DNA of 64,000 nucleotides from Antedon mediterranea (lineage: Eukaryota; Animalia; Echinodermata), in NCBI RefSeq assembly GCF_964355755.1, contig NC_092676.1, forward strand, positions 20,974,871 to 21,038,870, written 5' to 3'. Below, in pieces: positions 906 to 61,459 of the stretch. The notes beneath the pieces were generated by a model that made no database searches, had not been told where the DNA came from, and was given only the letters and a program-made list of their open reading frames with translations. The translations under genes were made by a program, and so were the position numbers. The stretch's first letter is position 1; each line of letters starts with the position of its first letter.

Positions 906-909
906 TTTA

Positions 910-4279: not shown

Positions 4280-4579
4280 ATATATAAATGTAGCAAGTTT
4301 AGAATCCAGTTTTCATTGCGGGTACCGATAGATCGATGTATGTTATTTACTTGTCTCTTGAGACAGACGGATGCAACAACAAAAATCAGTGACCGTGTTC
4401 ACCATTCACACTTTGGCTAGGTGGAAACACTTACCAATACAATTTCAACAATCTTCTATCTATCTAAGTGAATAACATTTAAGGGAAATACTCATATTTA
4501 TTGAGTTAAGTGAAATATTCAATATTTAAGGAAAGTATTTCGCAATATTTTGTTGTTACCGCGATAATACGTACTTTAA

Positions 4580-4806
4580 AGATGTAGCCTATTGTCCCCC
4601 TGAAAAAAATGTTTACCTCAAAAAACTAAAATTTAAAGCAAGGCCATATACATGGCTGCAGTCGCATGCTCAAGTTAGGGTTTACCGACCAACCAACCGA
4701 CTAAAAATAGTAAAATTGGCTCCCAGCCAATTGATTTTTAGTTAAATTTAACCGTTTGTTTAGTCTTTTTATAAGTGAAACGTTGATTTTAGGGGACAAT
4801 ACATCT
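4580..4806. mobile_element. Kolobok-like MITE copy containing a nested HINE-like fragment
   Basis: TTAA|AGATGT..ATTGTCCCC ... GGGGACAATACATCT|TTAA; the internal ~4637-4705 segment resembles the reverse complement of the element at 16932-17013. Confidence 0.75.
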
Positions 4807-31635: not shown

Positions 31636-33258
31636 TTGTTAAATAGAGCTCTTTTAAGACTTTGTAAATATCTATATATGTGTAAATTATTGTTTTTATG
31701 TTTGAATCCCTTCAGGATAAAAAATATACATTTTGTTGAACATTATAATGTCTTCTAAAATTAAGAAAACGTTTTCTGACCGATCAGAAGATCCGACCAG
31801 TATGTATACGACTTTTAGAGAGAGTCGGAGTCGAAAGAGTAATAGAAGTTTATTCATGTGAGGGAACCGAGATGGCTTTACAATACATACAACATGTATG
31901 TAGTGAATGTTTAATTTAAAAGATTGTTTTATTGTTCGGAGGCTTGATTTCTGCTCTTTGTACGTTTTCGTCTCCAACCTTTCAAAGTTTATTCTAGAAA
32001 TGTAAACATGTTTAGGTTGAGCTAAAATTACTCAATAATATGTGAGCCTGATTAGGTAAGGCTTACATGATGTCATTATATACATAATTTATGTTAAAGT
32101 TATTATTAAATCTATACCTCTTGTAGGAATGTTCAATGTAGCTATATTACACAGATAAAAATCATTGTCAACACATTACATGCGCGCTTATTTGTCTATA
32201 GCGCCTACCTATGTGATATGAGTACAGTATTTGAGAGAGGCAGCCTGCTAATAAAAATAGGTCCAGCTCAGGGATGATTTTAAAAATGTTTTTATTCAAG
32301 AGTTGTTAAGAATATCGAGGTAAAAGCAAATAAAAGAGTGAAGTCAAGATGCTTACTTTGTATTGTAATTTTGTGTCTATTATTATTATAAAAACGTTTG
32401 CGAACAAAAGCGAGAAAAAAAAGTCATTGAAATTTCACTAACTTCGGAATATATTAATATTTATTTTAGGATGAAAAGTTCCAATGATGACATAATAAAT
32501 ATTTATAACTATTAACTGATGAATAATGGTGGTGGTAGGTCCGATCCGACGATTAAAACATTTTACTACTACAGATAAATGTAAATAATTTTAAATATAG
32601 CGCCCTCTTTTTTGAATGTGATGGCGCCCGCTTTTAAATTTCACAGGAAGTTTTCGTGTTCAATCAAGCATGTAAATGGCAACAGGGATTGGCTCAGACT
32701 CAGTTTGGTATTTGAAAAAAAAAAGGAGTTAGCAGCAGGTATGTTATTAAATTATATAGACCTAGGCCTATACAGTATTATCAAGTTTAAAAAAAATATA
32801 AATTGTCTTTTTGTCTAGGTTAGATTTAGTCTAGAGTATGTTAAACAACACTCGTGGGATGTCGTATACGCAGGCGTAGTTAGCTGGCCAGTGTGTAGGC
32901 CTAGTAAGTACCACTCTCTATTTAAGTGCACACCGCCGACCACCCGACCAGCACCAGGCAGGCAGTATGCTGCGGGGAGAGAGGCTCTCAACGACTATAC
33001 CGGGAATCCGTTGCAATGCATCCATACCTCACCGGTCTAGCTAGGCTACATTGTTAGGCATATGCCTATTAGTTTTTTCTATCTTTTATTTCAGCTGTGG
33101 AGTGGGTCATGCAGGAGGACAGGATAGATGAGTGAGATTCATTATAAATGATGTAACATTTTAAATGGGAAGTTTAGTTTATTAATAAACAACAAAACGA
33201 AATATTTTATCCAGTACTGCTGTCCTACTACTGTACTTCTACTAGGCCTACAACCAAA

Positions 33259-36200: not shown

Positions 36201-39200
36201 ATGTAGCCTTGAATTATTTTGTGTTATGGTCAACATCTTTATTTTGCATTAATATTGTAAAAAATATTTTTATAATGCATTATTCATTATTAGAATTATA
36301 CATAAAAAGAACTACATGAATATGATTAATACCCTATTGTAGTAAATATATTATATTAAAAAATATACAGGACAGTAAATTAAATATATAATGATTCACA
36401 ATCAATACTAATTTAATATGCTATTGTTAACAGTACAGTAATTCTTGAATTATAAATAAGTATTTTAACCCAAGGCCGAATGTAAAAAACATGTTGTGCA
36501 GTGTACACTAATTAAATTATTATTCACACAGAATAAATCTAAACTAATTACTAAATATTCTCTCAAAAGGCTAAACTAGCAAAAGTAAAAAAAAAAGCAA
36601 TGAGATCATTTTACTGTAGTGGGTATAAAGGCCAGTTTACACAGACGAACGGTAACAATAAACGGAAAACCGCGTAGCTTGTCCCACGAAGAATCTGTAT
36701 CTAGTATCTAAGCGTAAAAAACATCCGCGATATGTGTAAATGGTCATAAGGAATAATATAGATTCTATATTTTTATTACCGTTACTGCCAGTCTGTGTAA
36801 ATTGGCCTTAAAGTGTAAAAACACCATCAAGACCCTTATTCCAATCCACCCCAATTTTTAATTTGCGATATATCTTTTTACCTTGACTTTAGATCGTACG
36901 TTCCCACTTCATCGTAGATTTCGTGGCAATGGGGTAGAGGGCGTTGAGGGGCGGGCAGCATTGTTTCGTGTTCTTGCTGTTTATGCCAGATACAACCCAG
37001 CTGTTGGCTACTGCCAGGGTAAGAATATTGCTTATGGAATATGATTATTTACTGTAAGCCCTCCAATATAACACCAGATAGAGGGTGGTAAGGGAGAGGT
37101 CAAGAGGGAACAATATGGAGCGCATGTGATGTATTGAGGGAGGATTCATACCAACTACAACGAACAAACCTGTGTTGTCATTTGTTTATGTCTGAGTCCA
37201 TAATATATAATAACCAACATATGGACGATAAAAATGTGATTTCTAAATCTATAAACTATGTTAATAGCCAGTCTTAAAGTCTTAAAAACAAATTGAGAGT
37301 TGGCTATTATATTATCAAATAAATATTTATATTTTTTTTAATTGTAGGTATGTCTTATATAGTCGGAATGCTCTTAATGAATCTAGATGAAGTTGATGCA
37401 TTTTGGGTAATGGTCGTGTTATTTGAAAAGGCCAAGTATCTGTCGGGCTACTTTAACTCATCCATGGGCAGGTACAGATACTTTGAATTGCATAGTTTAT
37501 AACATAAACAATAAATTGTAGAGGCATAGTTGTTATGTCTGTGTAACATACAATATACAGACATTCACTAGTATAGGAGTATTACGGTACCATAGAAATT
37601 TGGAGACTTTCGCATTGCTTATTTTGAGTTCCATTTTCCATAACTTTTTGATGAAATTTTTTTACATATCTTAATAGTTTTATGGAATAAAATGATTTTG
37701 ATTGATAACAACAAAAATTATGCAAAAATTGTATGCATTCTTTAGACATACTGTAGAAGAACCTCCCTACTCTTCCTTTCCGACACTTTATTGTGGGGAC
37801 ATCATCACTATTAAAGAGACATTTTCCCATGAAATTAACAAAAGACAATATATGGCCATGGCCAACCACTATTCAGAGGCCAACCAAAAAAAAGAAAAAG
37901 AGAAGAGAGAAAATGCCCTTTTATTAATAGGGATTCTACTGCACTTTAATATTTAAATCTACTCTTTACTTAATATCCCTGTTTTTCTTAATAAATAAAT
38001 GCATCTAATCTACATAAATATATTAAAAATATTGTCTCCATATTTAAATCAACAGTATTTAAATTACTCGGTTTTACTTTTCATATAATACCATACGTTA
38101 TGTTTAATGTTGCAGAATACAGCGTCATGCAGAGGTTTTTAAATGTCTACTTAAGCAAAGAAAGCCATTACTGTATAGGCATCTGGTAAGCTAATTCAAC
38201 TCATTAAATATGTTTTTGCTGTTTATTCAAATTGACAATCGTGAAATAAGGCCTATCTATAATAATTATGTTTTTAGTCGAAGAATATATTTTTTAATTT
38301 TCTTTTATCCACTTATTTTCATTTCAAATATCTATTTTGTCTAAGTGATGATTAAAACACACATAACAATTATTATGTAATGCCCATGACTTGATTGATT
38401 GTATATATTCGAGTTGTAGTTCTCTTCTCTAATGTCAGTTTATCCAAGTAAGCTAGCACTTATAGACTACCATCAACACCTCATGTGTAATTAGTTACAA
38501 GTTTATTTAGTCAAATTACCAAGAACTATAACATTTTTCACTGCACTGATATTCATGTAAAAAATGCATGCCCAGTACAAAATAAACACACAATGTTCCA
38601 TATAAAAATGTAGAAAGTAGAGTTTGTGAATAATAATCATATTAGTTATTGAGAGACTCAAATATATTAATTCAAAACAAGTTAATTTCATTATAATTTC
38701 ATCCTTGTCAATGCATTGTTTGATCTATTGATTTCTATTGATTATCATTATACTACTATTTAAACAGATTGATTGAAAATCCTAGTGCATTTTAGGAAGG
38801 ATACCATATTGATTTTTGCATAATGCAACAAGTACTACACATTAAAGCTTAATATCATTGTTTTCCTCAATAAATAAATGTGTCTATTCTAATCTACACC
38901 AAACATATAGATATAATATTAATAATACTGTCTTCAATACACAATATATACCATATTAAAAATACCGTCTCCACTACACAATATATATTAAAAATACTGT
39001 CTCCACTAGACAACGCAAGGACAAAAGCGCAACGCAAGTAATTTGACCAATCACAACATGAATTGAATGAATTGTGTTTGTTCCACGGACTTGCGTTGCA
39101 CTTAAATATTTTAAATTTAACAAAAGTGAATTACCTGTTACGTAAACAAAATTATCCTTCGTGGGCGTTGATATTTCCTGTACAATAGGCTTAATTTGTG

Positions 39201-42200
39201 GACTTCCTTGGATAAAGCGACAAACAGATAAAAATGTGTTGAAAGCAATTACTACTGTAGTTGCTTACAATGTGAATAATTACTTCACCTGCTCTTTGTA
39301 ACAAATAATTCACTTAGTAATTGATAGCTAAATTGATTTTCTCTTAGATGTATACCTACAAAAATCCACAGTAGCAAAACTGTTACTGTATGATATGTTT
39401 TATAGATTATATTTTACCAAGAAGTTCCCACTTTGGCCCATGGTTCCTTCTCAAGGGCTGTCAAGTATTTAGTTAACAGTTGGTGGATTTTTATTCTAAA
39501 AAACCTGTCCATATATAAAGTTAATTATAATGTATTATAATTATAAATGGTCGAAGGAAATTATAAATGGATAGTATAATGTTATGTATGTGATTGTGAG
39601 ATTACCAAGAAGTTCCCACTTCTGTGTTGTGCCTTTGGCCCATGGTTTCCTCTTGAGCTGTCAAATTTTTAGTTAACAGTGGGTGCATTTTTATTCTAAA
39701 TAATCTGTCCATATACAGTTACCATATTAAATGTATTATATTATAAAGGGATAGTATAATGATTTGTATACTTAGATTATTACATTATCAACCATAGTCA
39801 ATACTTCTATTGACTATGTATCAACTAAACATTAGTATGCATAATGTCCAACATAGTTTCACTGCATTAAACTTAATATAACCTGACCTGAATCATTATC
39901 AACTTACTTGTTATGCAGTGCATGTGACCAGAGTCATTATCAATCAACTCACGCAAACCAATGCATATCTATGCTGCACTATATAGTGATCGACACTATT
40001 GTCATGGATTTTTTTTGTGCTTGCCAATCCACAATTGTGCCTGTTTTGAATCTATTGCTCAGATCTCAAAATGAAAGGTTAATTGTGAATATAAATTCAT
40101 GTACACTTTTTACCCATTTGATTTTGTGACATATGGCTGGCAATCTGAATTTTAATATTGGATTGTCACCTCTTTCATCATAGACCGTACCTACCTTTAT
40201 AAGTACTCAATTTCATACAAAATTTGAATATATTATTGTTGAGACAATTCTTTTTCATGCATTTCATTTAATTTTATTTGTTGTTATTTTCATAGGAGAA
40301 AGTTGGTGTCCATCCATTAATGTTTATCACTCCATGGTTTATGTGCCTGTATACATCATTACCATGTTGGGACACAGTGCTATCAATATGGGATCATCTT
40401 ATAATGCAAGGTACAGTAATTCTTACTGTTTTTCACATATGTCTCTGTATCTCTATCACAACTATTCTTCACTTGTCTATGTTGTACCAGTGTTTATTTT
40501 GTGTAATTGTACCTGTATAAAACCAAGGCAATCTAACAACAGGATGCTGAGCTCCAGAGATCAAAGACTTTATCTGAGGCTGCGAAACGATCATTCTACA
40601 CCCTTAGCAGACACTGCTCGAAGAATGTACATACTGTTGGTATTTGTCGCAGCCAGACATAAGATCAAAGGATTGTTACTATTTCTTATCTTGGCAAGTT
40701 GAGCTCAGTGTGCTATTGTTAGACTGCCTTGATAAACCAAGATAGACCATTATACTATAATGGTCACCTCTAAGCATTTCACATTTCCAGTCACTTGACA
40801 GGTACTGTAAAAGAATAAAGAAAATTCATATTTTATTTTATTTTAATTTATTCGGTTTCAAAATAAGATTACACAGGACAATAGGTAGAGTAGTATGGCA
40901 TTATATACATTGCACCAGAACTGTTTCATTTTTCATGAGGGGTGTCTATGTGGAATAATTCTGTAGTAAACGAACATTCAGATTAATTCAAATAACTTAT
41001 ACTTTTATGTGTTTAGGAGTTACAGTTATTTTTCGAGTTGGCCTCGCATTGTTGGAAATCATTGAAGATAAAATTATGTCCACCACAGATATGTCACTGA
41101 TCTTGCCTTCCCTACTTCATGTGCCAGTGGCTTAGTGAGTACCTATACATATTTTTCATGCTTTAAAAATTAGTTTGGTATAAACTACTTTTCTGTATAT
41201 TGCTGTGTTTTTTCTACTAGGAGACCGAAGACCTGTTTACACTAAGCATGATAAAAAATGATACATTTTTTATTGACGTTTGTTATCATTCTAGTATAAA
41301 CAGGCTTTTAGAAGACCGCAAACTGTTTATCATGGATGTGGCTGAGTTTAAAGAAAGTTATTGCTTTAAACTTGCTCTAGTAAAATTGAAATTTTAATAA
41401 ACCATACAAAGGAATCATGAATCCATTTTATAATTAGAATTCAAATCAAGTAGTGGTTGTATTTTTTACAGTGCAAAGTCAGATAGCTTATTACCAGTAC
41501 TCTGGGAGACGACAGTCCATCGGTGGGAGATTGACAGCATACAAGCTATTGTTGATGAAGAGATTGAGAAAGCGAAACAAGGTAAGAGGTAAACTAGTTC
41601 AAGAAGGGTTAATAGTGGTTGCAAAACCAGTAGAAACTATATTGGCCTAAATTACATACAGGTTTGAAAGTGCACATTAACAAAATCTTCAGGATCCTAA
41701 AACCCTGTCTACACTATCAAACAGCAAAATGTGATGTGCCCATATATGCACATGCTGATGTCATATCACTACCATATTTGGGCATATCACTACCATATTT
41801 AGGCACATCACACACAACACAATGATATTTCCAATGAAGCCGCAATTATTGCCAGACATTGCTTAATGTGCACTACACTATTATTGTAACCACAGCTACG
41901 TTTGTAAATTTGTATTTTACTACGGATCGCACCGGTCATATATCTATCCTGTACAAGTCTTGTACAGTCAACTCTCCCAATACCGGACACCTTTGGGCCG
42001 GCCAAATAAGTCTGGTTTTCGGAATGTGTTTTTAATGGTAAAAATAAATTTGGGACCTTTTGGTCCTCAAAAAAAGTCTGGTATTGGGAGAGTTTCTGGT
42101 TTTCAGAGAGTCCGGTATTGGGAGAGTTGACTGTACCTCTTTGATCATATACTATATTTAATTGTTTATATTGACAATGTTTTTGCACTTTTTGATTTGC

Positions 42201-45200
42201 ATTTCAAATGCTACACACTTGTACTACACTATTACAATATTCATTCATTTTTTTTAATTCATGAGCAAAATGTGCATTTTGTTTTGCTTGTTTTATTCAG
42301 CATGGTTTTGCAATGCTTTTGTGTGTGTTTATGCAATTTACCAATATTAAAAAGTTTTTTCCAACTTTACAATTAATAACAATTAGGGTTTTCCTATAAT
42401 TTAATATAGTTACTTATATTATATGGATTTAGAGACTTTAGATAATAATAATAGTTAAAATGAAAAACATACATATAATAATCAACTTTGTCTGGATAGA
42501 CCAACTACACAGAAAATATATTCAGTTCTATATGGCTAATAGAAAACATAATGAAAATGTCAGAAGTCGCAATATGAAGGATGATATCCAATTAAGTGTA
42601 ATGTACAGTCAGAATCTTACCAATCTAGGTTAACCATAACCCATTTAATACACAGGAAAAACAATATTAAAAACATAAAAAAAAAAAAATGTTCACAAAT
42701 AGTAGATAATTCAGTTTTATTTTTACGGAATATTATAAAATATTGTTTATGTTGTTTTTTATTTCTGAACTCAAATCAATTTTAGTTTTAAATATTTCTA
42801 ATTTTTTATTTATTGTTTTTGCTCTATGTTAGTAGATGTTATGATTGTTTGTTTTCTTTACTCTTTTTACCCTTTCTTTTAAATTTTCCTCCTTGTTGCT
42901 AAGATTAAGAACACATTTAGGAATGTACTTTAGAGACACAGACATCTTGTGAATGTTGCTTGAGTATTTCAATTTCTATCACCTTCTTGTACTGTGCTTT
43001 TTCTTGAAAGAAATTGTATGTTTTTTAAGAATATAGATTTATTGAATTGGTGGAGGAAAGCTTCCTTGTCAAAAATGATTCTATTGCAGAGCCCGTTTTA
43101 GTATTAGTCCAGTAGAATACATATTAGTTAAATTACTACTATCAATTTGTTATACTAAGTTGGACACTTAGTGAAATGTGTCTTTCTTTCCATTGCCTCG
43201 ATGTAGCCTCTATGTGTGTGAAGGCCTTAAAACGATGGCGAAGAGGAGGCAGATTGCAACAACTGGCCCTGGAGCCTAACTTTTTTCATGGCGATCTGGC
43301 AGCTCTCTCCTCCAATGCTGTCGCTGGTAACTGTTGCATACAGTAACTCACGGCAACACTTCTTCTCTGTTGTAAATGTTCTCTCAGAAAAAATTACTGA
43401 AATATACGTGTTTACCATTGTAATCTAGTATTATAATCTCAGTACTACAAAACCATATTTTTTCCTTTGTGATCAGTAATCCATATTACTAATATGTGTT
43501 TAGGTGGTGTTCAGGCAGGTTTAATTACTATGGAGAAATTTAAATTACTTTTGTGTGTTTTTTTACAGTAAGTTCCCTAATTCCAAATTTAAAACATGTG
43601 CCATTAACTAATGGTTGTTTTAGCATATGCCATTTTTCTCAGCAAATAAATCTTTATACCTGCAGGAGAAAATTCCAGTTTATAAACCAGTTATAAATTT
43701 CTAATCAAATCCATTTGAAATTAACTGGTTTTACTGTAATTTGGTTATTGTAGTAACTGGTTTACTGGTATAAACTGGTTAAATATTCCAATTGATTATC
43801 ATTAGTGTAAAACCAGTTTAAAGCATGTCATTTGGTTACTAATATTCAGAGGTGTCTGGAACTGGGAATTTTCTTTATTAACTAAAGTAGACACTAGAGT
43901 ACATTTTACAAAGTTCTTATTTCCTAGAATATTAGAAAATTGAATAAAAAAACATATATATTTTGTAGAAAGTAGAATATCATGAATCAAATTCAGTTTG
44001 CAGTTGGAAATATTTAACACAATTAAAATGTACTTATGTATTATATATTTATAGGAATTTAATTATATTTATCTAAATAGGCTATTTATTATTATGAACT
44101 TCACTTAAAATTTAAAGTTTATTTATTTTTATGGTATCATATATCTTATTTTTATTGCTATAACTATACTATATTACGACTAAACAATATATTAATATAT
44201 TACCTACATTGTAAACAAATTATGTGTTAGATAATTAGTACAATACTAGAATACGATGCTATAGAGAGGTTGGCATCAGTTCCCACAAATCGTGGGCAAG
44301 TAGAATTAATGTAGCATCAGTTTTCACATGCTGAGGGCAAGTAGAGATTAAATTTCCATAATCACTAGTAGTTTCATAGATAACAAAAATATATAAAACA
44401 TTGTATATCTAAGATTGAAAAAGGTCACCCCAAACATCATTTTAAGTCAACCCTTCTGGTAAACACTTAGATTGTAAACTTGGGTGAGGAGGCAGTGGGG
44501 TGTAAGGGGAAGGGGAGTGGATGTAAGGGGAGAGTGAATCTTTGTAAATAAAAATGCTAAAATAATGTTCAATCATTTGCATTTTATTTTGACAAATATA
44601 AAATGTTTTAAGATTATAAATCAAGGAAAATAAATACTACCTGCATACACAAGTAAAACAAAAATATTTATTTTTTCATTGTTCCCTCACATATAATTTT
44701 CATAATTGATAAGGAGCTTACATGTAACGTATATAACCTTGCTCCTTCAGTTTGTACCTTCTGACTCCCCTCTTCTTAATCTCTGTCTACAGTATCAAAC
44801 TTTATGTGATGTGCCCATATATGGACATGAGGAGTCATATCACTACCATATTTAAGCATATCACTACCATATTTGGGCACATAAAACTTTTTTGTCAAAC
44901 TAGTTTGATAGTGTAGACAGGGCTTTAGATTAGTCATGTCATGCGAAATACTATACCCATAATGCATCATGCACTATTTAAGACCATAATTACCATTAAC
45001 ATATCTTCGCATCATATCATACCCATACATTCATATCATTTCCCATAATGCATCATGCGATATCCACTGGCATGGCTTGTTTCATAATTTATTGAACTAT
45101 TTTTCAAAAAGCAATTTTATTTATTCTTATGAAATTACTAACAATTTGCATGATGGGCACTTGCAAAGAGCACAAATTGTATCACCATTACTAACCCTCA

Positions 45201-47823
45201 ACACTTGGCACTTTGATGCTTGCATTGACATCAAACATGGAATATTATCTGTCGGTGTGTGTGTCTGATACAGGTCGCAAGAGAGCTCTGATGGCAGATG
45301 AATATGAGCAAAAATCAAAGAGGCACAAGACAAACGCAGCAGAAGGTTAGTGTGGTTTTTGATTCAGTCAGATTACATCTTAAAGATATATTCTTCCCTT
45401 AAAAAAAACACAAAAAAAAAACTGGACAGACAATGGGATTCTGGTTTAACAGTTATCTCCAAAAAAAACCCCCAAAATTGTAATTCACAACAATGCACCA
45501 AAATTCTTTCCTACAATTTTGAAAACTGGACTTTCCAGTAAACCACAATTTGGCTTGGTATTGTGCAATTGTAGGTTGCACTGTTACTGATCTTAATACT
45601 ATTGAATTATACTACTGTGTATTTGCCTTTAAGGTTCATTGTTCAAGAGAATCGTCAACATCTTTACCCCTGCTAGTCAAAGACAGCAAGGACCATCATT
45701 GGGCAATAAATCACAAGTAGTAGCAACTAAAAAGAGAAAAGAGCGCCATCGCAAGTACCCAGGACATGTGGTCACCAGACAACAGACTAACCAAAAAGAA
45801 CAGGACGAAGTTTCATCCACCGAGAGACGTTTAAGTTCCGTCTCGATCTCGCCACCACCGAAAGAGAATGACGAGACGACAAATCCTTTGGCGTTTCAGA
45901 GCAAAGATATAACAATGAAAGCAAGTATTTAGATACCTTTTATCCCCTGTAATAAAATGTCAATTCAGTTACAATTCATTATGTGAACTTTTGCTGTAAA
46001 CCTCACTTTTACTTTGAAGACAAAGCTAATTTATGTCATTACTTATTTCTATACTACTGTATATACTTAGGCTCCATATGACACCAGGTATAGAGGACGG
46101 AATACAGGAAAAAACAACAGTGGAAATTCCAAAGCTTTACACACAGGGTAGGTGAGATTATTATACCCTTTTCATACCTGCAAAAAGTTAAACAAAGCAA
46201 CATCTTGCATAGTTAAAACAATTTTCTGGAAAAACAAGGGACCCCTGTGAAATCTCGAGAGAATTACCAGAAAATTCAAGAAAAACACTGATGAGAGACC
46301 TGTTTTTGTTTCGAGAAGTCCTGAGTTAAGATAAGATAACTTTTATTGATCCTCAAAATGGAAATTCATTGCTCGTCATAATAACAAAGAAAACACAATA
46401 AAAACAAATATAGCATAAAACCATTCATATAAAAACATCTAAAAAAATACAAGATAATATTATCTTCTTGACTTCCTGTTGTATGTACTGGATGATACCG
46501 GAGGGAGTTGTTCCTGCGAGCACGGTGCCCTGTTGTGAAACTGACCAATAATCATAGTAATCTAATAGCACTAAAAACTATGTTTTCTCCCGAGATTTCT
46601 CATGGTTCATGTATGATCAAACCTGGTTATAACTTGTTAAAAGTTATAACAATATATGCAGGTGTGAAAAGGGTATTAGAGGCATATCACATGCTAACTT
46701 TCTCTTGTTCTTGTTATTTAACTCCTGCTAAATTTCCAACAAAAACAGTAAGGTTTGAACATACACAGTTTAGTAAACCTTATTATTATACTCAATTCTT
46801 ATTAGATTCAAAGTTTATTATTTATATTTTATTTTTCTTGAATACTAACTACTTCAGTAGGGATGTAACCTTAAGTCCAAAGTCAACAAGAAGATGTTCC
46901 AAAGGCTTCCAATTTGATGGCGTACGTCGTAGTCCAAGAATCAGCAGTACAGACTATAGATCTAGGCTGGAGAAAAAGACCCTAGAAAACTGGAAGAATC
47001 CATTTAACACGCCCTCCAACAGAAAGCTGATAAGCAGGTAAAAAATAGAGACTCCTGGAGAGCAAACAGGGGAATCCCATAAAAAAATAATATGTATAGA
47101 ATAATATTCCTACCTGTACACTAGCCCAACTTGCTTATGACTGACTGATTTTCTAAACTAATGCTAAAACCATGCCCAAAATTATGGAACGCCTCCTCTG
47201 CCTTCAATTTTGTCGATAGGTGGCGGTATAAATTACACAATATTTGACTGCATGACGATTGGTGTGTACTGCATGACGATTGGTGTGTACTGAATGACGA
47301 TTGGTGTGTACTGCATGACGATTGGTGTGTACTGCATGACGTTTGGTGTGTACTGCATGACGATTGGTGTGTACTGCATGACGATTGGTATGTACTGCAT
47401 GACGATTGGTGTGTACTGCATGACGATTGGTGTGTGCCGAAAAATGCTAAAAACACATGAGGCCTCCAGCATTGGAGGGCCACTTGGGGTTCCTAAGCCA
47501 GGGGCCTCAGACCTCTGCGTTAATTGCACCACTGATTGTAATATTTCATAATTACTTTCTTTGTAGCTCAGCAAAGGTGCAACATGCTTTCAAGATGTTT
47601 CATACACCAACACCATTGAGAAATAACCAGGTACTGTAGATACATCAGTTTGTAGTTACAAACACCATATTAGCATACTTATAGTCTGCCATTTGTGTAA
47701 AATGATTAACATTGTTTGTTTTCTTACAAGCAGGGACGTTGTCTGCAGCCCAGTCCGTTCTTTTCCAGTCCAGAGATTGAAATGAGTACAATAGATACAC
47801 CAAGACAACCTCAAGATCCATGA
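33259..47823 (+). CDS. TBC-domain Rab GTPase-activating protein (~858 aa; EVI5/USP6NL/TBC1D10-like clade)
   Basis: Exons 33259-34046, 34671-34863, 36039-36198, 36893-37018, 37348-37471, 38116-38185, 40296-40410, 41017-41134, 41472-41581, (43207-43326 optional), 45274-45345, 45634-45920, 46071-46147, 46858-47037, 47567-47630, 47731-47823. Motifs DEYGF, RRGIPHHLRGKLW, arginine finger IxxDxxRTFP, glutamine finger YCQGM, WFMCLY..WD. Probable non-coding exon ending 32738. The 3' exons are less certain. Confidence 0.85.
35330..35652 (-). mobile_element. tRNA-derived SINE (MetaSINE-like)
   Basis: Minus strand: GAGTGAGTGGCCGAGCGGTTAAG (A box) ... GGTTCGAGGC (B box), GCACACTTTAAAGAACC core, (CAAA)n tail. 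Confidence 0.75.
36628..36809. mobile_element. Harbinger-like MITE
   Basis: TIR AAGGCCAGTTTACACAGAC / GTCTGTGTAAATTGGCCTT; a related partial copy at ~54757-54950. Confidence 0.65.
39410..39770. repeat. Intronic tandem duplication (~190-bp unit x2)
   Basis: TTACCAAGAAGTTCCCACTT...GGATAGTATAATG repeated with divergence at ~39414 and ~39602. Confidence 0.75.
40523..40732. mobile_element. MITE, second copy of the 28249 family
   Basis: CCAAGGCAATCTAACAACAGGATGCTGAGCTC ... GAGCTCAGTG..TTGTTAGACTGCCTTG. Confidence 0.7.
41965..42133. mobile_element. Tc1/mariner (pogo/Tigger-like) MITE
   Basis: TA|CAGTCAACTCTCCCAATACCGGAC ... GTCCGGTATTGGGAGAGTTGACTG|TA: perfect 24-bp TIR and TA target duplication. 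Confidence 0.85.
46165..46676. mobile_element. MITE with TIR TACCCTTTTCATACCTGCA
   Basis: TACCCTTTTCATACCTGCA ... TGCAGGTGTGAAAAGGGTA. Confidence 0.6.
47247..47436. repeat. 21-bp minisatellite (ACTGCATGACGATTGGTGTGT) x ~9, intronic
   Basis: Directly visible tandem array between TBC exons. Confidence 0.95.
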
Positions 47824-49304: not shown

Positions 49305-50161
49305 GTAGAAATATCCTTACAATAAAATCAATCAACATCCGTGTTTGTAGCACCACTTTTGTCGAATAAATTGTTTATTTCATGTTATTATGTGTTGTGT
49401 TACGTTTTAGATTTAAAATAATCACAATATTTTGTCTAAAAACATTTTTTTCGGCAGTAGATTGTCCGCAATTATTTTTTTCTTGGGAGGCCGAATGTGC
49501 GTTGTGTACGTACGTTCAGCTGACTGACTAAAAAAGAAGCCTAGCTAGGCCTGGCCTAGGCTGGTAGTTGAAATATTCTGTTTAAAACAAACCTATCTTT
49601 TCCGTTGATTCATTTTCTTTTCCTATGTGACTTTGTTATCGTACCGATAAGGCTAGAGCAGGCCTAGCTAGGCCCCCAGTAGTAATGCCCAAGTCAAGTG
49701 CGACTGTTGCTGCGGGGGATTTCCGTTGAGAATGGCGTGCTGGACACGGGCGATCCTAGGCCTAGCTTACATGGAGGCCTACTAGACTTAAAAAAGGATA
49801 GACTAGTAGATTTGGCCCATATGTTCTAATTAGGCTAGGCCTAGTCTTCTGTTTTAATCAGCCTAGTCTTCTGTTTTAATCCGCCTAGGCTTAGTACTGT
49901 AACAGTGTAGTACTATTATTGTATTAATATAACTAGGCCCTAGCTATAGTAGAAGTCAGGTTTGTAAAGTTGTACAGTACATCTTTTACTATACTACTGG
50001 CCTAGCTAGCTAGGCCCAAGGGTAGGTAGCCCTACAATTTTCTAATATAGCCTAGTAAACACTACATAGGTGTAGTAAAATTGTAAATGAGGAAATAAAT
50101 TTACTAAAACTGGCACAATTGATTGACATCTTTTTTCTTAACCTACCTTTCTTTTTTTAGG

Positions 50162-52596
50162 ATGTTGATGCCAAAGAAAAACCGTGTTGCCATTTATGAA
50201 CACTTATTCAAAGAAGGTGTAATGGTAGCCAAGAAAGACTATACTCTGGCAAAACACCCAGAACTAGATGTTCCTAACCTTCAAGTTATCAAAGCCTTGG
50301 GTGTAAGTATTTTGATTTATTGCAAAGAAGATTGTACATGCTCACTTTTTTCTAATAATACAGAAAAATATATTATTATTTTATTCTTTTTATTAATTAA
50401 ATATTTAACACTAATGTGTGTCAATGTTTAAAAAAATAGAAGCTGGTTGGTTTATCGGTTGGCTTTCTGTTTTTATTACCTGAAACATATTTTATAAATT
50501 CTAAAACCTTTTGTTTTTTATTTTGTGCTATTTTTTAGGCACTATAGTATCAGAACAACACATTTTTTTAGAGGAGGGAGTGGGATATCCCTACACTTTG
50601 TTGTGTCTGAAATGTGTCTGCTTAATAGAGTTCTACAGTTTTTTAAACTTATATGTATATATTACGCTCCTCTACTTTCTGCTATATTCATATATAGTAT
50701 GTTGTTTTGTAGAGCACTCTTCATTTCGAAACGGTGCATTTTTGTTGTGAATACTATTAGCATTTTGCAAAGCACGCTCGTTGAGCTTGTGCACTCTTTG
50801 TGTTCATAATCAGTGTACCATGTCCCGCATACCTGGCTCAGCCTATATATTGTGCCAGTTCTGCGGTACATTTCATTTAGAAACCTGAGCTGCACTGACG
50901 AGATCTAATAAGATCGAAACAGTACTGTCTCCAGTATATATATATATAATGTATATTTGAATGTAAATATATAATGTATATTTGAATGTAAATTTATTGT
51001 AGTCTTTGAAGTCCCGTGGCTATGTAAAAGAACAGTTTGCTTGGAGACATTACTATTGGTATCTGTCAAATGAAGGTATCCAGTACTTGAGAGACTTCTT
51101 GCACCTTCCACCAGAAATTGTGCCATCAACCCTCAAACGACAGGCAAGACCAGAGCAGTCAAGACCACGACCCAAAAGTATGTCAATTTCTGTTATACTG
51201 TAGATGAAAAATGATAATTTATTTTATGAGGGTGGTCCATCCAGCTGAAGCTGACCCTAACAAAATATATCATGACAAGACAACAATTAAATGGAATGGT
51301 TGAAACATGCATTGGTTTTATCTGATTTAAAATAGCAACAGTTGATTCGCAATTTTCATTGAGGACCTGCCCCGGCAACAGACAATGCTGCTAATTGCAA
51401 AATACGCTCTATGTGATTGGCAGCATTGCGTTAGCATGGGCAACCACATTGGATAACCGTTTGATCTCATAGCCAATGAGTCAATCCTTGTATTATTTTG
51501 TCCTTTTTGTTTTTAATTGTAGGTTTTGACAACCGTGGTCCAAGTTCAGCCGAAGCAGGCCAGAGAGATAGTTACCGAAGAGGACCAGGTGAGTGATTCT
51601 AAATATAGTAGCATTGCAATATACAGTAGACCCTTCATTTTAAGTACTGTACGAGACCAAAAGACCAGGCCTACCCTCACATCTAGCTAGGCCTAGCCTA
51701 CTATAAAAGTATATGCAGGCTGTGTGATATTTTATAAAGAAAAAATCAATGCTCTTGTATTTTCTATCAATAAAAACAGTCCTGCTGTAGGGGGCACTGC
51801 ACAGCCATGGCTTATGGTCTGCTGTTTATAAATTGCACCCTCAGTATAAGAAAATTAAATTACTAAAAATGATGATGTCATCGATCATTTTATGTGTATG
51901 TGTAGGGGGTTACCCCGGTGAACTGGTTCACACAATAGCCCCTGTATCAGGAGGATTACCACCTATCTGATAGGACAGTGATTAATTTACTATTGGTAAT
52001 CCTTGGCCACATTGCCTAAAGACATAAAATAAATATGTGTATGTATAATCTATGGAACATTAAATCAGGGTACGTAAAACAAAGCTTCTACTGTACTTAT
52101 TGTTGCTTGGAATACAAGAATATGACTTTCCAGACATAATTTTGCAAGAAAGGAAATAGTGGACATTTAGAAATATGTCAATTAATACAATAACTAATGT
52201 AACCTTTTTTACAGCTGGTGGCGGACCAGACAAGAAGGGTGAAGCCGGTGCCGGAGCCTCTCCTGCATTTGAATTTGTACGTAAATGTTTTTATTTATTG
52301 CTGTATACTAAAATTATTAGTAGTAGCCCCAGCCCCTTCTACATTTTGAAACATCCAAATTTAATTTTACAATTTTAAGACCCTGGTGTGTGTCTCTCCA
52401 CTCCTCCATATTCAAACATTTTAAAATGTAATCTGAATTTGAAACTATGCCTTGGTTCTAAACCAACAATGTGCTAAGGAAGGATAATTTATAATTGTTT
52501 TCTCACTCTACAACTCTGTCGACAATATCTTGAATGTTTTTGCTTTTTTTATTTCAGAAAGGAGGATATGGGCGTGGTCGACCAACACAGCAGTAG
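50162..52596 (+). CDS. RPS10: 40S ribosomal protein S10 (eS10), 160 aa
   Basis: [26 protein letters not shown]...[34 protein letters not shown]...[19 protein letters not shown]. Exons 50162-50302, 51003-51177, 51523-51588, 52215-52276, 52558-52596; AATAAA at ~52651. Confidence 0.97.
50660..50934 (+). mobile_element. Retrozyme-like repeat unit in RPS10 intron 2
   Basis: Near-identical to 62849-63116; ends in a hammerhead ribozyme followed by (TA)n. Confidence 0.8.
50890..50934 (+). ncRNA. Minimal type I hammerhead ribozyme
   Basis: CTGCA-CTGACGA-GATCT-AATA-AGATC-GAAA-CAGTACTG-TC-TCCAG: intact core, 5-bp stem II, palindromic stem III, GUC cleavage site after 50929, one mismatch in stem I. Confidence 0.8.
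51289..51451 (+). ncRNA. Candidate intronic H/ACA snoRNA
   Basis: Strong 3' hairpin (TGCCC/GGGCA lower stem; 17-bp upper stem 51383-51399 / 51412-51428; internal pocket), ACA at 51446-51448, ~70 nt upstream of the 3' splice site in a ribosomal-protein intron. H box is imperfect (TGAGGA). Confidence 0.45.
51901..52045 (+). mobile_element. 5'-truncated SINE 3' end
   Basis: Starts with AGGGGGTTACCCCGGTG, shared with the SINE at 35330-35652; ends AAATAAA; flanked by direct repeats TATGTGTATGT. Confidence 0.55.
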
Positions 52597-56245: not shown

Positions 56246-59200
56246 ATGACGCCTTTAAAAATCGTTTACTTCTGTTTACTTGCAATCAGTATGGTCAACG
56301 GAGTGTGTAGTATGCCTACAGGTCACAATTCTGGATCGGACATCCTAAATATCATTGGACCAAGAAATAATTGTTCATCTGTGAGACTGTGCGATCTTCA
56401 TCATTATGAACTAGCTTTAACAGCGACTGAAATCAACAGGTTTCCTAAAGAGCCGATTTCATGTTATTTAAATAAAAATCAACAAATTAGGTAAGATTAT
56501 TATAATATTAGTAAAAGGTTTTGCCCTACTCTGACGTTTGTACTTTATACTGGCTTGCTAGTGATCATGATGTCGTGGGTTCGAGCCGGACCCGAGAATT
56601 TTTGCGCAAGTAGGTCTACTCTCAATGTACTTAGTAGTACAAATTAGAGACTGACGAAATGGTACTTCACAGTATCTACAAACAATTACAGTTATTATAT
56701 TATAGAGATATTGATAATCATAATAATATTGATGATGATTGATAATGATATGCTTATTATACATGTTTCGATTAATGAGGAATATCTTCATAGAGATTGA
56801 TTTTTAAAAATAAACTAAACTACCTCAATATTGTATCATATTTTTACAGATACTACATTTGTCGCAAGTGCTCTGTGTGTGAACCGTTATCTGCTGTTCT
56901 TCTTGAATGTGGAAGAAAACACGATACAATCTGCTCCAATCATTCAAAAGGTAATTTCAAAACATAATTTTGTACTAAATAATTCTTACCTTAGCATTAA
57001 AATTCTGAAGTTGCTTTGATAGACTCGAGTTCTGGTCGCTAGGGCGGCCGGATGTGATGGAGGAGAGGAAGCTTCTTTAGTGGAAAAAAAACCACTATAA
57101 ATTCACTTTTAATTTATCGCATTTTAGAAAGCAGTGGGAGGGGAAGACGGTTCGTCGGCTACGAGCCTTCGTCATTCCCCTCAAATATTCATATTATGCA
57201 CATATAACCTAATCAATGTTTAATACCATAGAATATATTGTTAATTAAAGATGTATTGTCCCCCAAAAACATGACAAATTAGGAATAATTAAATTTGAAT
57301 AGGTTATTTTGTAAAAAAAGTTTTCACTTATAAAACGACAAAATAAATGGCAAAATTCAACCAAACAATTATTGGCTGGCCAATTTTAATGTTTTTTGCG
57401 TTAAATTATATAGATACATTTTTTGGTCAAAGTGAATAACTATTCAAATGGCATATTCAACAAAAATTGTTTAAAGAATTATTTTTTTCAGGTGGAACAA
57501 TACATTATTAAATATTGTTTTTTTAACAGTTGAGTCAAGAGGCACCGTTGCATCTTCAATAAAAAGCTTGTCCACATTGACCATCGAAGAAACAATCCCT
57601 GTGGATGCAAATACAGAAAATAAAGATAGTAAACGGTCGCTATATATCATTGTTACTGTTGGTGTAGTCTTTCCAAATGTGATTCTTGTATATTTCTATA
57701 TCACGCTAAGGAGATGGTTAGTTATACTTTCTTATTTTTACTTTTATGTTGAAACCTGACATGCGAACGAAAAACAATCACTTTAGTTATAAATCTAACG
57801 TAAGCCTATGTATACGCTATGCAATGGTGGTATAATGCCATACAGACTGGAAAATAATAATGGTATTAAGAAAATATTGTCCAAAACGAAAAGATTTGAA
57901 CACGAAAACTTTAAAGAAAATATACTATTAACTGACCGTTCAATGATGCGTACTATATTGCACGCTATGTGAGCCACAATCGTCTAATCAAATCACAGGA
58001 ATTGTTTAATTACATAAGTTATAAATTCACATTCTTTTGACAAAATAATAGCTTCTTTCAAACGCGTCATGGATAGGTCTATACTTGATAAATATTTTGT
58101 TTACAGTATTATGAATATTTAAAATAACTATGATGTAGGCCTACGCAGTAATTTTGAATATCAAATTATTCCTCTTTCAGGAAACGTCTTTTCAAAAGAA
58201 TTTGTGCAACAGCAAAGCTTACAAATGAATCCACTGTCAGCGTAATTCCCGCATCGTCTGAAAGAACATCAGTGGGAGTAACCACAACTTGCAATGTGTC
58301 TTTAGGAGGCACAGCCACTACTCCGATGACTATGATAACAAGCACTAAGAAGACATCATACAATCCATTCTGGCTTGAAATGAAAGCAACCATTGGACCA
58401 GAAGGTGGTGTTGTCAGTGACCCTAGATCTGGCGTGAACCTGATTATTCCACCCGGTGCTATTCCAGAAACTCACCCCAAACAAGAGATTATCGTCCGAG
58501 TTGCACTTAAACCATCTAATTTTGGGCTTAACCAGCAAAAGGATTTAACTCTGCTAGGACCAGTGGTTGAGTGTTTGTCGCCTGGTTTAGCAGAATTCAA
58601 CTCTAATGTCACTTTGGTGGTGCCACATCGTGCTAAACTCAACCCAGACTGGAAGTTCCAGGTTCTACATTCCGAAGACAAGTACTCGGATCCCGTTTCC
58701 AAGTTTCGATGGACAGTAACAAGTTCTAATCACGATGCGAAACATGGTGTGCACTTTGAGGTTGACGAAAATTTCTTTAGGATCAAAACAAGTCACTTTA
58801 CAACATACACATGTGCTGGGAGCTGTTCTAGAAAGGCGCCCTTGAATTTGCAGGTTGTGGTGTATGGGGACTATGTTCATATTGACGGGAGGAAACAAAC
58901 AGTCGATCTACGGTGTTACGTCTGTGATACAATAAAGGATTATTCTCATACATTTCGTGTTAACGAGCGCAATGGTCCTCTGTGTGTACCACGACCAATC
59001 AACCATTTCTTTGACAAAAAGACAAAGAAAATTGAATTGTTTTTTCCAGAAGATGATTTTGGAACAGACTTCCAGTGGACATCTGAGACGTTTAACGATT
59101 CTCTTCCGAATTCAAGGGTAATTATCAATATTGATCAGTCACCATTAACACCGTTATCAGAATAAACATCATCATGATAAACATCATCATGATACACATC

Positions 59201-60715
59201 AGCATGCTCAACACAAGCATGATAAAAACCATCATGATCAACACCATCATGATCAACACCAGCATTATCAACACAAGCATGATCAATACCAGCATGACCA
59301 ACACTAGCATGATCAACACTAGCATGATCAACACCATCATGATCAACACCATCATGATAAACACCATCATGATCAACAACATCATGATGAACACTATTAT
59401 GATGAACACCAGCATGATCAACACCAGTATGATCAACATCATCATGATTAACACCTTCGTCATTAACACCATCATGATCAACACCATCATGATCAACACA
59501 TATTGAACTCATTTTGCTAAGTTTATTGATTACACATTTATAAGAAATATCTTTGAAGCACGTAGCCCGATGTTGTTCAGAGGCGATTCCACATTACGAG
59601 GCCTTCACACTGAAACCTAAAGACGAGGGAACACGGGTCGACAGTTTAGAGATGACATTGAAAATTGTTGCGAATGGTTTAACAGAAATCATTGGTCCAA
59701 TAAGGATGATTACAATGGTACGTTATACGAATAATATTGTAGTTGTTTGAAATCTATAAACTACAGTATAAAATCTAATTCATGGCAGTGTTAAACTAAT
59801 GATATATTAAGTTGTAAGTACTCATTGTTAAACTAATAACGCAAATAGACAAAACTGAATGTGGAACCTTATTGATCAAATTAATGAATTTTTTATTTAG
59901 GATACTGGACGATCTCAATCACCAGCTAACTATACAGGTAGGCCTATGTGACATTAATTTAAAATAAGAAAATGTCACAAAAAATGTGATGACATCAGAC
60001 ATGATGATATCATAACACTACCATATTTGGGCATATCAAAACCATATTTGGGTACATCACACTTTTGTTCAAACTAGTTTAATTTAATGTCGTATGCACA
60101 GCTAATCCTTATATTTAAAATTTACATAAATGTGAAATAGTTATCTTCCTGTATAATGACGTTACTGTTCTAAAATCATATACCATGTATTCCCGTAGTG
60201 CATCCCGTATTGCGGGGATACCTAGAATTTTAGAACGGCGTAACCTTTTATGAAATGTATGCATATTTACATAATTATGATGCGGCGTTGATACTTCGAG
60301 GTATTGCTTCCAACGCATCTCCCTTTTATGTCTACACAAAATAGCATAAAGTAAAACTTTGCATCATTACATTATTGTATATAATAATAAAAATAATGTT
60401 TTTTGTTTAAATATAGATATTGTGAGTAACGAAACATTAAGAGAAATTTCACGAGAGATTCCCAGAGATAAGTGGAAAGATGTCTACCGCACATTACATG
60501 ACTTTGCGAAGTTTGAAGGAAGCGCGAACATTGATATTGAAAATATCGAGCACAACAATCAATCAGAAATGGGAGAAATGAAATACCAGGTATTGATGCT
60601 ATGGCGTACTAAAGCGGGCAGACAAGCTACGAAGACTGCATTAACGCAAGCCCTCAGGAGCTGCCAACTTAACAGTATCGCAGACGATTGCATCAAATTA
60701 GAGAGCACAATATAA
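56246..60715 (+). CDS. Type I membrane death-domain receptor: SP - TNFR-like CRD - TM - ZU5 - UPA-like - Death domain (~654 aa)
   Basis: Exons 56246-56490, 56850-56950, 57530-57716, 58181-59117, ~59559-59717, 59901-59937, 60417-60715 (1965 nt, in phase). CRKCSVC...ECGRKHDTIC (TNFR CRD pattern); TM SLYIIVTVGVVFPNVILVYFYITL followed by RRWKR; ZU5 IGPEGGVV...GVNLIIPPGAIP...GPVVEC..PH...TSHFT; death domain ISREIPRDKWKDVYR...YQVLMLWRTKAGRQATKTALTQALRSCQLNSIAD. Confidence 0.85.
57249..57506. mobile_element. Kolobok-like MITE (third copy, inverted relative to 562-905)
   Basis: TTAA|AGATGTATTGTCCCCCAAAAACATG ... GGAACAATACATT. Confidence 0.7.
59165..59500. repeat. 15-bp minisatellite (ATGATCAACACCATC/AGC) x ~22, intronic
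   Basis: Visible tandem array filling the intron between the ZU5 and UPA exons. Confidence 0.93.
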
Positions 60716-60762
60716 TTACATTCCATATTGTAAGCCTAGTTTATCGTTTGTGTTTATATTGT

Positions 60763-60942
60763 AAAGCTTAGTTCCCACTAGCGACGCGTAAGAAAATGCC
60801 CTTCCAATAATGTTGTTATCCCCGCCTGCGTAAAATCAAACCTACGATGTATTGCGTCGTCGGTTCCCATTTGTGATATTACGCAATACAACACTTTCCG
60901 TCGACACGTCACTGCGTTGCGTTCTAGTGGGAACCACGTTTT
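60763..60942. mobile_element. Harbinger-like MITE
   Basis: AAAGCTTAGTTCCCACTAG ... CTAGTGGGAACCACGTTTT. Confidence 0.6.
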
Positions 60943-61459
60943 AGTACAGACAGACATGAACAGAACAGAACACATCTTGTGAATTGTTGTGACGACGTTA
61001 GGTTAATCCAGTTACCCCAAATAGGGGTGTTTTACGTGCTGTATACGGGTCGTCCCTGCTTAAACATTACCAAGACCTTATATTGATCATTTTGAATTAA
61101 AAATACAAACAGTGACCAAGCTAAAATTTAATTCAATCCATGTAAGCCATTTTGTAAATGTTCTTCATTCCCTTGTTCCGTTTATTACATTGTCTCCCCT
61201 ACCGATACATTGTTTTATTGCAATTAGTCTACGTTATTAAAACACTTATATATACCAATTGTTCTATTCAAATAATTCTTTCTAGGAAATGTTCTTAGAC
61301 ATCAGTGTGTACAGTAAAAGCTTTTAATCACATCATGATGTAGGCTCATTTATTTATTTTTGTTTTTTTCCATAAAACTTACAGATACCAAACAATTGGG
61401 CGGCATTGGTTGATTGATTCTCTATACAAAGATAATAATAACAATATTATTCAAGTAAT

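What the first reader, a model, noticed from the sequence alone, without database searches (positions are those of the whole stretch)
56246..60715. TNF-receptor/UNC5-PIDD hybrid death receptor
Seen: signal peptide, a TNFR-type cysteine-rich repeat (CxxCxxC...C....DTIC, on an exon the ORF track reads in the wrong frame), S/T stalk, single TM, then ZU5, UPA-like region and death domain. Known: ZU5-UPA-DD is the signalling module of UNC5 (Ig/TSP ectodomain), ankyrins, PIDD1 and UNC5CL, while vertebrate death receptors couple TNFR CRDs directly to a DD. I know no characterised receptor combining a TNFR CRD with ZU5-UPA-DD. Inference: an invertebrate innate-immune or apoptosis receptor class linking TNF-type ligand sensing to a PIDDosome- or inflammasome-like output.
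Basis: partly seen in the sequence, partly recalled or inferred. Interest (0 to 1): 0.85.

Follow-up and report, generated by a model that had tools for sequence, protein, structure and literature searches.

The report
TNF-type receptor with self-cleaving death tail
This feather-star gene encodes a single-pass membrane protein with a TNF-receptor-like outer domain and a ZU5-UPA-death-domain inner tail that is predicted to cut itself; the layout recurs in other marine invertebrates, was once tabulated for corals, and likely relays an outside signal to cell-death or immune pathways, which is untested.

Summary
The gene is real. It has seven exons and matches RefSeq XP_071956937.1 of the crinoid Antedon mediterranea. 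Intron-skipping contigs join the signal-peptide, cysteine-rich (CRD), transmembrane and ZU5 exons. ZU5 and death domain (DD) pass Pfam cut-offs. The UPA is shown by a family profile and a model (UNC5B, Z 23.2). The CRD has the six TNFR cysteines but scores below Pfam's cut-off. Correction: the spliced contigs use an acceptor giving 659 aa, not 654, and the window's allele has lost that acceptor. It is not a one-off. CRD+ZU5+DD proteins occur in a sea urchin, a brittle star, an acorn worm and a brachiopod. A 2016 supplementary table lists ten CRD+ZU5 entries among 40 Acropora TNFRs, two with a DD, without comment. The PIDD-type autocleavage motif HF(S/T) sits at the expected site in 39 of 45 aligned relatives. 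Best reading: a death receptor whose pre-cut tail releases or clusters UPA-DD on ligand binding. Ligand, cleavage and output are untested. My searches found no paper describing the class. This scan's earlier notes hold other ZU5-UPA-DD fusions, not this one. It is a new variant of known kinds.

The parts
56246..56490 (+). Exon 1 (coding): ATG, predicted signal peptide (about residues 1-22), N-terminal part of the CRD with C43, C49, C73
   Evidence: X5 contig covers 56136-56490 and ends at the donor; X9 contig joins it to exon 2
56850..56950 (+). Exon 2: CRD core C86-x2-C89-x2-C92-x9-C102-x7-C110
   Evidence: Pfam TNFR_c6 E 2.6e-6, 28.2 bits, under the 29.4 cut-off; C49, C86, C89, C92, C102, D107, C110 invariant in 11 of 11 aligned CRD proteins
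57530..57716 (+). Exon 3: S/T-rich stalk and single transmembrane helix (about 57640-57711), followed by basic RRWKR
   Evidence: hydropathy; helix in the paralogue's model at pLDDT 80-88; joined to exon 4 in X5 and X9 contigs
58181..59117 (+). Exon 4: S/T-rich juxtamembrane linker, ZU5 domain (about 58362-58820), first two thirds of UPA
   Evidence: Pfam ZU5 E 1.3e-15; family profile and fold match to UNC5B, ankyrin-B, CARD8 and NLRP1 FIIND
58794..58802 (+). His383-Phe384-Thr385, predicted autocleavage site (HF/T)
   Evidence: HFT or HFS in 39 of 45 aligned sequences that cover the site; aligns to the Gln-Leu-Gly of UNC5B
59165..59499 (.). 15-bp tandem repeat (22 copies) in intron 4; the RefSeq model translates part of it (725 aa), probably an annotation workaround
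   Evidence: TRF; P0001 sequence; contigs skip it
59543..59543 (+). Variant base at the exon-5 acceptor: window A, other allele G
   Evidence: G read in X1 and X8 DNA contigs; the AG one base on gives a stop at codon 494
59544..59717 (+). Exon 5: end of UPA (59559 is the in-frame alternative acceptor left to the window's allele)
   Evidence: joined to exon 4 at 59544 in X5 (paralogue transcript) and X9
59901..59937 (+). Exon 6: 37-nt linker
   Evidence: GT-AG and phase; the gap between the exon-5 and exon-7 pieces in the 1268-nt X5 contig fits 37 letters; not listed as its own piece
60417..60715 (+). Exon 7: death domain and stop
   Evidence: Pfam Death E 1.3e-8; six-helix model at pLDDT 81-96, Z 14.7 to FADD DD

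Best explanation
[quoted passage not shown] Step 1 (shown): the exons are spliced into one CRD-stalk-TM-ZU5 message, and the tail folds as ZU5-UPA-DD in the model. Step 2 (predicted, about 75%): after folding, Thr385 attacks the Phe384-Thr385 bond as Ser does in PIDD1, and the two pieces stay bound, with ZU5 holding UPA-DD quiet at the membrane. Step 3 (inferred, about 50%): a trimeric TNF-family ligand clusters the receptors through the CRD. Step 4 (inferred, about 70%): clustering or release lets UPA-DD oligomerise, as UPA does for NLRP1 and CARD8, and recruit a death-domain adaptor, leading to caspase activation or NF-kB. FADD/TRADD/RIPK1-type adaptors are my first guess; the data do not single one out. 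The two Antedon paralogues have near-identical tails and diverged ectodomains, which would give different inputs to one output.
For: Splicing. Domains. The six CRD cysteines and the Asp before C6 are invariant with two ordinary TNFR-DD proteins. In the ESM Atlas, all ten best family-bearing feature hits for the ectodomain share one family or clan, and the listed rows carry TNFR_c6 (scores 0.78-0.85, leads only). The layout is conserved: TNFR_c6+ZU5+Death in Lytechinus, Amphiura, Saccoglossus and Lingula; TNFR_c6+ZU5 in Ptychodera and Lymnaea. Antedon and Amphiura align collinearly from the CRD loop through the TM to the ZU5. The motif position holds only Thr (27) or Ser (12) after His-Phe in 39 of 45 sequences; Ser, Thr or Cys is the nucleophile in this chemistry (PMC9162469 section 6; PMC3210808 passages). 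Paralogue identity: 41-45% in the N-terminal ectodomain, stalk and TM, 79% in the CRD core, 95-98% in UPA and DD. UPA promotes death-fold filaments in NLRP1 and CARD8 (PMC11874512 passages).
Against: The window's CRD is below Pfam's curated cut-off (24.0 and 28.2 bits against 29.4). It has a 36-residue stretch between C1 and C2 and was modelled poorly (pLDDT about 48-64), so its fold is unconfirmed. There is only one CRD. Its best PDB matches are p75NTR (E about 0.5), a receptor for neurotrophins. Close relatives of the tail lack a CRD (Branchiostoma, a second Lingula protein, Owenia, two hemichordate proteins), so the tail can work without it. Six of 45 relatives have lost the motif. No clear TRAF motif lies in the juxtamembrane region. 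The window's own allele has lost the exon-5 acceptor, and the distal junctions were seen only in the paralogue's and organism B's contigs. No functional data exist here.
Confidence: 0.5

Rival explanations
1. It is a p75NTR/UNC5-like developmental or dependence receptor: it binds a non-TNF ligand (neurotrophin-like or a membrane protein) and its ZU5-UPA-DD opens by a conformational change, with cleavage incidental.
For: The CRD's top PDB and Atlas structure hits are p75NTR (all weak). The best overall fold match is the autoinhibited UNC5B tail. No TRAF motif was found.
Against: HF(S/T) is kept in 39 of 45 relatives while UNC5B lacks it. The ZU5-UPA tree separates the family from canonical UNC5 (100/99). 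Paralogue duplication with ectodomain divergence is more typical of immune receptors (general knowledge).
Confidence: 0.2
2. It is a ligand-independent, UNC5CL/NLRP1-like tripwire: the pre-cut tail is freed by proteolysis or degradation of the membrane-bound part, and the CRD serves only for assembly, trafficking or as bait.
For: CRD-less relatives with the same tail and an intact motif exist. CRD-bearing members do not form one clade (4 changes; AU p 0.0185). UNC5CL keeps TM, the module and autoproteolysis without an ectodomain (PMC10084454 passage). The fold matches the CARD8 and NLRP1 FIIND at Z 18.0.
Against: The CRD is the best-conserved part of the ectodomain between paralogues (79% against 41-45%) and is kept from crinoids to brittle stars and urchins.
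Confidence: 0.2
3. The window's copy (or allele) is a decoy or a decaying duplicate: loss of the exon-5 acceptor gives a protein cut off before the death domain.
For: A at 59543 removes the acceptor used by all contigs seen, and the neighbouring AG shifts the frame to a stop at codon 494. RefSeq needed an odd 725-aa model. The X5 contigs over the tail come from the paralogue: all 8 amino-acid-changing differences match it.
Against: An X1 contig and an X8 contig carry the intact G, so this is one allele or an assembly base, not the gene. An in-frame acceptor at 59559 remains. No other stop or frameshift exists. The front half of this copy is present in spliced contigs.
Confidence: 0.1

Closest known systems
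Acropora digitifera TNFRSF+ZU5(+Death) proteins, e.g. 07000Acd and 02522Acd (Quistad and Traylor-Knowles 2016, PMC4979521, Table S1)
   Same: CRD, then ZU5, then a death domain about 240-260 residues further on, the room a UPA needs
   Different: Listed as CDD rows only; the main text never mentions ZU5. No UPA, TM or cleavage motif is noted and no function given. I did not have their sequences, so kinship with the crinoid family is untested. None of the 13 S. purpuratus TNFRs in that table has a ZU5 row.
Death receptors of the TNFR superfamily (TNFR1, Fas, DR3, p75NTR)
   Same: Type I topology, six-cysteine CRD, C-terminal DD that superposes on FADD, TRADD, RIPK1 and TNFR1 DDs
   Different: One CRD with a long insert; a 310-residue ZU5-UPA module between membrane and DD; predicted autocleavage
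UNC5CL (ZUD)
   Same: TM + ZU5-UPA-DD with autoproteolysis (PMC10084454 passage); an UNC5CL cluster is among the Atlas's top feature hits (0.87, lead only)
   Different: UNC5CL has no ectodomain. Orthology was not tested: no labelled UNC5CL was in my trees.
UNC5A-D netrin receptors (UNC5B, PDB 3g5b)
   Same: Type I receptor with a ZU5-UPA-DD tail; best fold match (Z 23.2, 282 residues)
   Different: Ig-Ig-TSP1-TSP1 ectodomain absent; UNC5B has no HF(S/T); separate branch in the ZU5-UPA tree
PIDD1; NLRP1 and CARD8 (FIIND)
   Same: His-Phe-nucleophile motif at the end of ZU5, followed by UPA and a death fold
   Different: These are cytosolic; PIDD1 has LRRs and two ZU5; NLRP1 and CARD8 end in CARD and use SF/S. 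Here the nucleophile is Thr and the module hangs from a membrane receptor.

Membership tests
TNFR superfamily | At least one extracellular CRD with six conserved cysteines | tested here: met
   C49, C86, C89, C92, C102, C110 and D107 invariant in 11 of 11 aligned proteins, two of them ordinary TNFR-DD receptors; definition from bioRxiv 10.1101/2021.12.26.474206 part 1
TNFR superfamily | CRD reaches the curated TNFR_c6 threshold or folds as a CRD | tested here: inconclusive
   E 2.6e-6 to 5.4e-5 but 24.0-28.2 bits against 29.4; relatives from Ptychodera (35.9) and Lingula (30.2) pass; model pLDDT about 48-64 there; Atlas structure rows under the naming bar
TNFR superfamily | Single-pass type I membrane protein | tested here: met
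   N-terminal hydrophobic stretch, one TM, basic residues after it; by hydropathy and model only
TNFR superfamily | Binds a TNF-family ligand (or neurotrophin, for p75NTR) | not testable with these tools
   No Antedon ligand sequence was in hand; needs a binding assay
Death receptors (TNFR subgroup) | Cytoplasmic death domain | tested here: met
   Pfam Death above cut-off; Z 14.7 to FADD DD, 12.3 to TNFR1 DD
Death receptors (TNFR subgroup) | Recruits FADD/TRADD and triggers caspase-8 or NF-kB | not testable with these tools
   Adaptor DDs tie in fold score
UNC5 netrin receptors | Ig-Ig-TSP1-TSP1 ectodomain | tested here: not met
   No Ig or TSP1 hit in the 150-residue ectodomain; a true UNC5 in the hit list shows them (P0063)
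UNC5 netrin receptors | ZU5-UPA-DD cytoplasmic supramodule | tested here: met
UNC5CL | TM plus ZU5-UPA-DD with no ectodomain | tested here: not met
   A CRD ectodomain is spliced on
UNC5CL | Orthology of the ZU5-UPA module | not tested
   No labelled vertebrate UNC5CL was among the sequences held
PIDD1 | LRRs and two ZU5 domains, cytosolic | tested here: not met
   One ZU5, no LRR, one TM
Autoproteolytic ZU5 proteins (PIDD1, UNC5CL, FIIND) | H/S-F-nucleophile motif before the last ZU5 strand | tested here: met
   HFT at 383-385; 39 of 45 relatives HF(S/T); lies between strands 375-382 and 385-391 of the model
Autoproteolytic ZU5 proteins (PIDD1, UNC5CL, FIIND) | Cleavage occurs | not testable with these tools
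   Needs expression and immunoblot

The most novel reading that the evidence does not exclude
An old, overlooked class of invertebrate death receptors, present in echinoderms, hemichordates, brachiopods, molluscs and probably corals, wires TNF-type ligand binding directly to a PIDD/NLRP1-type self-cleaving ZU5-UPA switch, so that an outside cytokine releases an oligomerising UPA-DD fragment. Vertebrate UNC5CL would be its ectodomain-less remnant.
Probability: 0.3. Interest if true: 0.8.

Novelty: new variant of a known kind. Interest (0 to 1): 0.58.

Why it matters
In vertebrates, ligand-sensing death receptors and self-cleaving ZU5-UPA sensors (PIDD1, NLRP1, CARD8) are separate systems, and what triggers PIDD1 or UNC5CL from outside is unclear. 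A natural receptor that joins a ligand-binding CRD to such a module would give a ligand-controlled handle on how a pre-cut ZU5-UPA-DD is switched on. It also adds a branch that surveys of TNFR evolution have passed over: several members carry UniRef names such as 'Netrin receptor UNC5' or 'uncharacterized'. The value is tempered because ZU5-UPA-DD is often shuffled in marine invertebrates and the combination was already tabulated for a coral.

Tried and rejected
No whole genome was held, so synteny, the paralogue's locus and Antedon TNF ligands could not be examined. Word-index homologue searches found only crinoid proteins; the HMMER search of cluster representatives reached further. The first AlphaFold run on 5 sequences was usable only for the DD (mean pLDDT 37.8); the 47-sequence run replaced it (70.8). 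No RNA holder was listed on record; X5 and X9 are treated as cDNA only because their contigs skip introns at GT-AG borders. I rejected the deep X5 contigs as evidence for this copy's tail, because they match the paralogue. I rejected the RefSeq 725-aa insert as coding, because contigs skip it. The TRAF-motif scan gave only short matches in the stalk or inside ZU5. Pfam UPA found nothing in the crinoid proteins. No TNFR structure appeared in the fold lists, but that region was low-confidence and barely tested. No complex was predicted: no native ligand or adaptor was in hand. Quistad et al. 2014 (PNAS), Heinz et al. 2012 and Liao et al. 2014 were not held; any of them may mention CRD-ZU5 proteins. 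bioRxiv supplements were closed and could hold architecture tables.
Full report
Gene model. The window holds seven GT-AG exons on the + strand: 56246-56490, 56850-56950, 57530-57716, 58181-59117, 59559 (or 59544)-59717, 59901-59937 and 60417-60715. The exon-4 peptide is 100% identical to RefSeq XP_071956937.1 of Antedon mediterranea, a crinoid (P0001). A paralogue lies on a contig of the same length, presumably the same chromosome (P0002/P0003).

Splicing. Nine runs hold the stretch, none on record as RNA. I laid five of them (X1, X5, X6, X8, X9). X5 and X9 give contigs that skip introns. An X9 contig (organism B) joins exon 1 to exon 2. A 565-nt X5 contig with no mismatch joins exon 3 (TM) to exon 4 (ZU5), and so does an X9 contig. 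The first 68 letters of the X5 contig are not listed, but its depth of 6.89 appears at 56892 and 56894, and 64 and 4 letters at that depth reproduce the bin means 2.81 and 0.18 exactly. I therefore infer the exon 2-3 join. Both runs join exon 4 to 59544, which gives 659 aa. The window has A at 59543; one X1 contig and one X8 contig read G, which makes the acceptor canonical. On the window's allele the next AG shifts the frame (stop at codon 494) and 59559 is the in-frame fallback. The deeper X5 contigs over the tail belong to the paralogue: of 21 listed differences checked, the 8 that change an amino acid all match P0002. So the distal joins of this exact copy are inferred from the paralogue and organism B.

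Domains. ZU5 and Death pass Pfam cut-offs; TNFR_c6 is significant but under its cut-off. In an alignment of 11 CRD-bearing proteins, C49, C86, C89, C92, C102, D107 and C110 are invariant. C49 is thus the likely first cysteine, with a long loop before C86 that Amphiura shares. C43 and C73 occur together in both Antedon copies and not in Amphiura, and may form an extra bond (inference). Atlas hits for the ectodomain point to TNFR_c6 but stay below 0.9. A profile of 47 relatives matches UNC5B across ZU5-UPA (E 2.4e-28) and ankyrin-B across ZU5-UPA-DD. The model of the paralogue (90-98% identical in the tail) has pLDDT mostly 70-96 from residue 240 on. It superposes on UNC5B (Z 23.2, rmsd 3.0, 282 residues), ankyrin-B (18.3), CARD8 and NLRP1 (18.0 each). 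Its DD matches FADD 14.7, TRADD 14.3, RIPK1 14.0, RAIDD 13.9 and PIDD 13.0.

Cleavage motif. His383-Phe384-Thr385 (58794-58802) lies before the last ZU5 strand, where PIDD1 cleaves at HF/S and CARD8 and NLRP1 at SF/S (PMC3210808, passages; PMC9162469, section 6). In alignment A2 (47 rows, chosen by me from the hits; 2 do not cover the site) 27 read HFT, 12 HFS and 6 something else. Exchange between the two hydroxyl residues is what a working nucleophile would show. Cleavage itself is not shown.

Distribution. The profile search found 209 representatives at E up to 0.001 and listed 150. I scanned 96 of the 150, plus 8 cluster members, with Pfam, and ran a cysteine pattern over every protein held (13 matches). 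CRD+ZU5+DD: Antedon (two genes), Lytechinus pictus, Amphiura filiformis, Lingula anatina, and Saccoglossus kowalevskii, whose model shows no TM. CRD+TM+ZU5 without a detected DD: Ptychodera flava (model ends inside ZU5) and Lymnaea stagnalis. The same tail without a CRD occurs in Branchiostoma, a second Lingula protein, Owenia and two hemichordate proteins. Anneissia, Acanthaster and Patiria models start at or near the TM or later and may be incomplete. Only 20 hits were looked up for names, so coral members among the rest cannot be excluded.

Trees. On ZU5-UPA (21 rows chosen for known source or architecture) the echinoderm proteins group together (88/89, not starred), crinoids apart from the rest, next to hemichordate, amphioxus and lophotrochozoan proteins (86/90). 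All are separated from canonical UNC5 (100/99); sampling is biased by my own query. A quick 61-row tree agrees. CRD presence needs 4 changes, and one clade of the 6 CRD-bearing rows is rejected against 9 others (AU p 0.0185; the test was run after the tree was seen, and long branches are present). The ectodomain has thus been gained or lost more than once; which, the tree cannot say. Other hits carry ZU5 with RHD, caspase, NACHT, FN3 or Ig domains, so the module is readily shuffled.

What is known. Quistad and Traylor-Knowles 2016 (PMC4979521; I read the main text, parts 1-2 of 4, and supplement parts 1, 24, 25 of 28 plus a search of the whole file) list 40 Acropora digitifera TNFRs. Ten entries have a ZU5 row and two read TNFRSF-ZU5-Death in order; no other of the 18 species has a ZU5 row. 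The main text does not mention ZU5. Ten literature searches, covering ZU5 or ZU-5 with TNFR, coral, invertebrate, amphioxus and sea urchin, showed no paper describing such receptors. I judged most from listings; one search listed 40 of 45. Passages of PMC8195603, PMC7654579 and bioRxiv 10.1101/2024.07.27.603686 held nothing on it. The library lacks most subscription papers and three directly relevant ones.

Mechanism and verdict. I favour a death receptor with a pre-cut, autoinhibited tail: ligand clustering through the CRD frees or concentrates UPA-DD, which recruits a DD adaptor (0.5 overall). Rivals are a p75NTR/UNC5-like developmental receptor (0.2), a ligand-independent tripwire (0.2) and a decoy allele (0.1). 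It works like a cross of a death receptor and UNC5CL/PIDD1. It meets the sequence definition of a TNFR-superfamily death receptor, with the CRD fold unconfirmed, and fails membership of UNC5, UNC5CL and PIDD1. Interest 0.58.

Noticed in passing
window 59543: The window's allele has lost the exon-5 splice acceptor that other contigs carry; this probably explains the odd low-complexity insert in the RefSeq model XP_071956937.1.
   Followed up: partly
window 57640-57711 and P0002, P0004, P0005, P0007, P0009: An Asn sits inside the TM helix in 6 of 7 echinoderm proteins inspected (not Lytechinus) and in none of 7 non-echinoderm ones; it could drive helix pairing in the membrane.
   Followed up: partly
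P0001 against P0002: The paralogues are 95-98% identical in UPA and DD but 41-45% in stalk, TM and N-terminal ectodomain, which suggests gene conversion of the tail or diversifying ectodomains.
   Followed up: partly
window 865-7833: Four tandem single-exon rhodopsin-family GPCR frames (7tm_1); the first, at 865-1575, covers only part of the domain.
   Followed up: no
window 10221-30361: Exons for a Frizzled cysteine-rich domain followed by several Ig domains on the + strand, possibly one secreted or surface protein.
   Followed up: no
window 33178-46000: An acidic low-complexity frame followed by exons that look like a TBC (Rab-GAP) domain by recalled motif; no Pfam hit on the single exon frames.
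   Followed up: no
window 50123-50431: First coding exon of ribosomal protein S10 (PF03501).
   Followed up: no
window 57245-57490, 59998-60066, 60760-60945: High-copy interspersed repeats inside introns 2 and 6 and just downstream of the gene (very high contig depth).
   Followed up: no
P0122 (Batillaria), P0125, P0161 (Dendronephthya): Other ZU5 fusions among the hits: two Rel dimerisation (IPT) domains + ZU5; ZU5 + caspase; Ig + TM + ZU5-UPA-DD with HFS.
   Followed up: no
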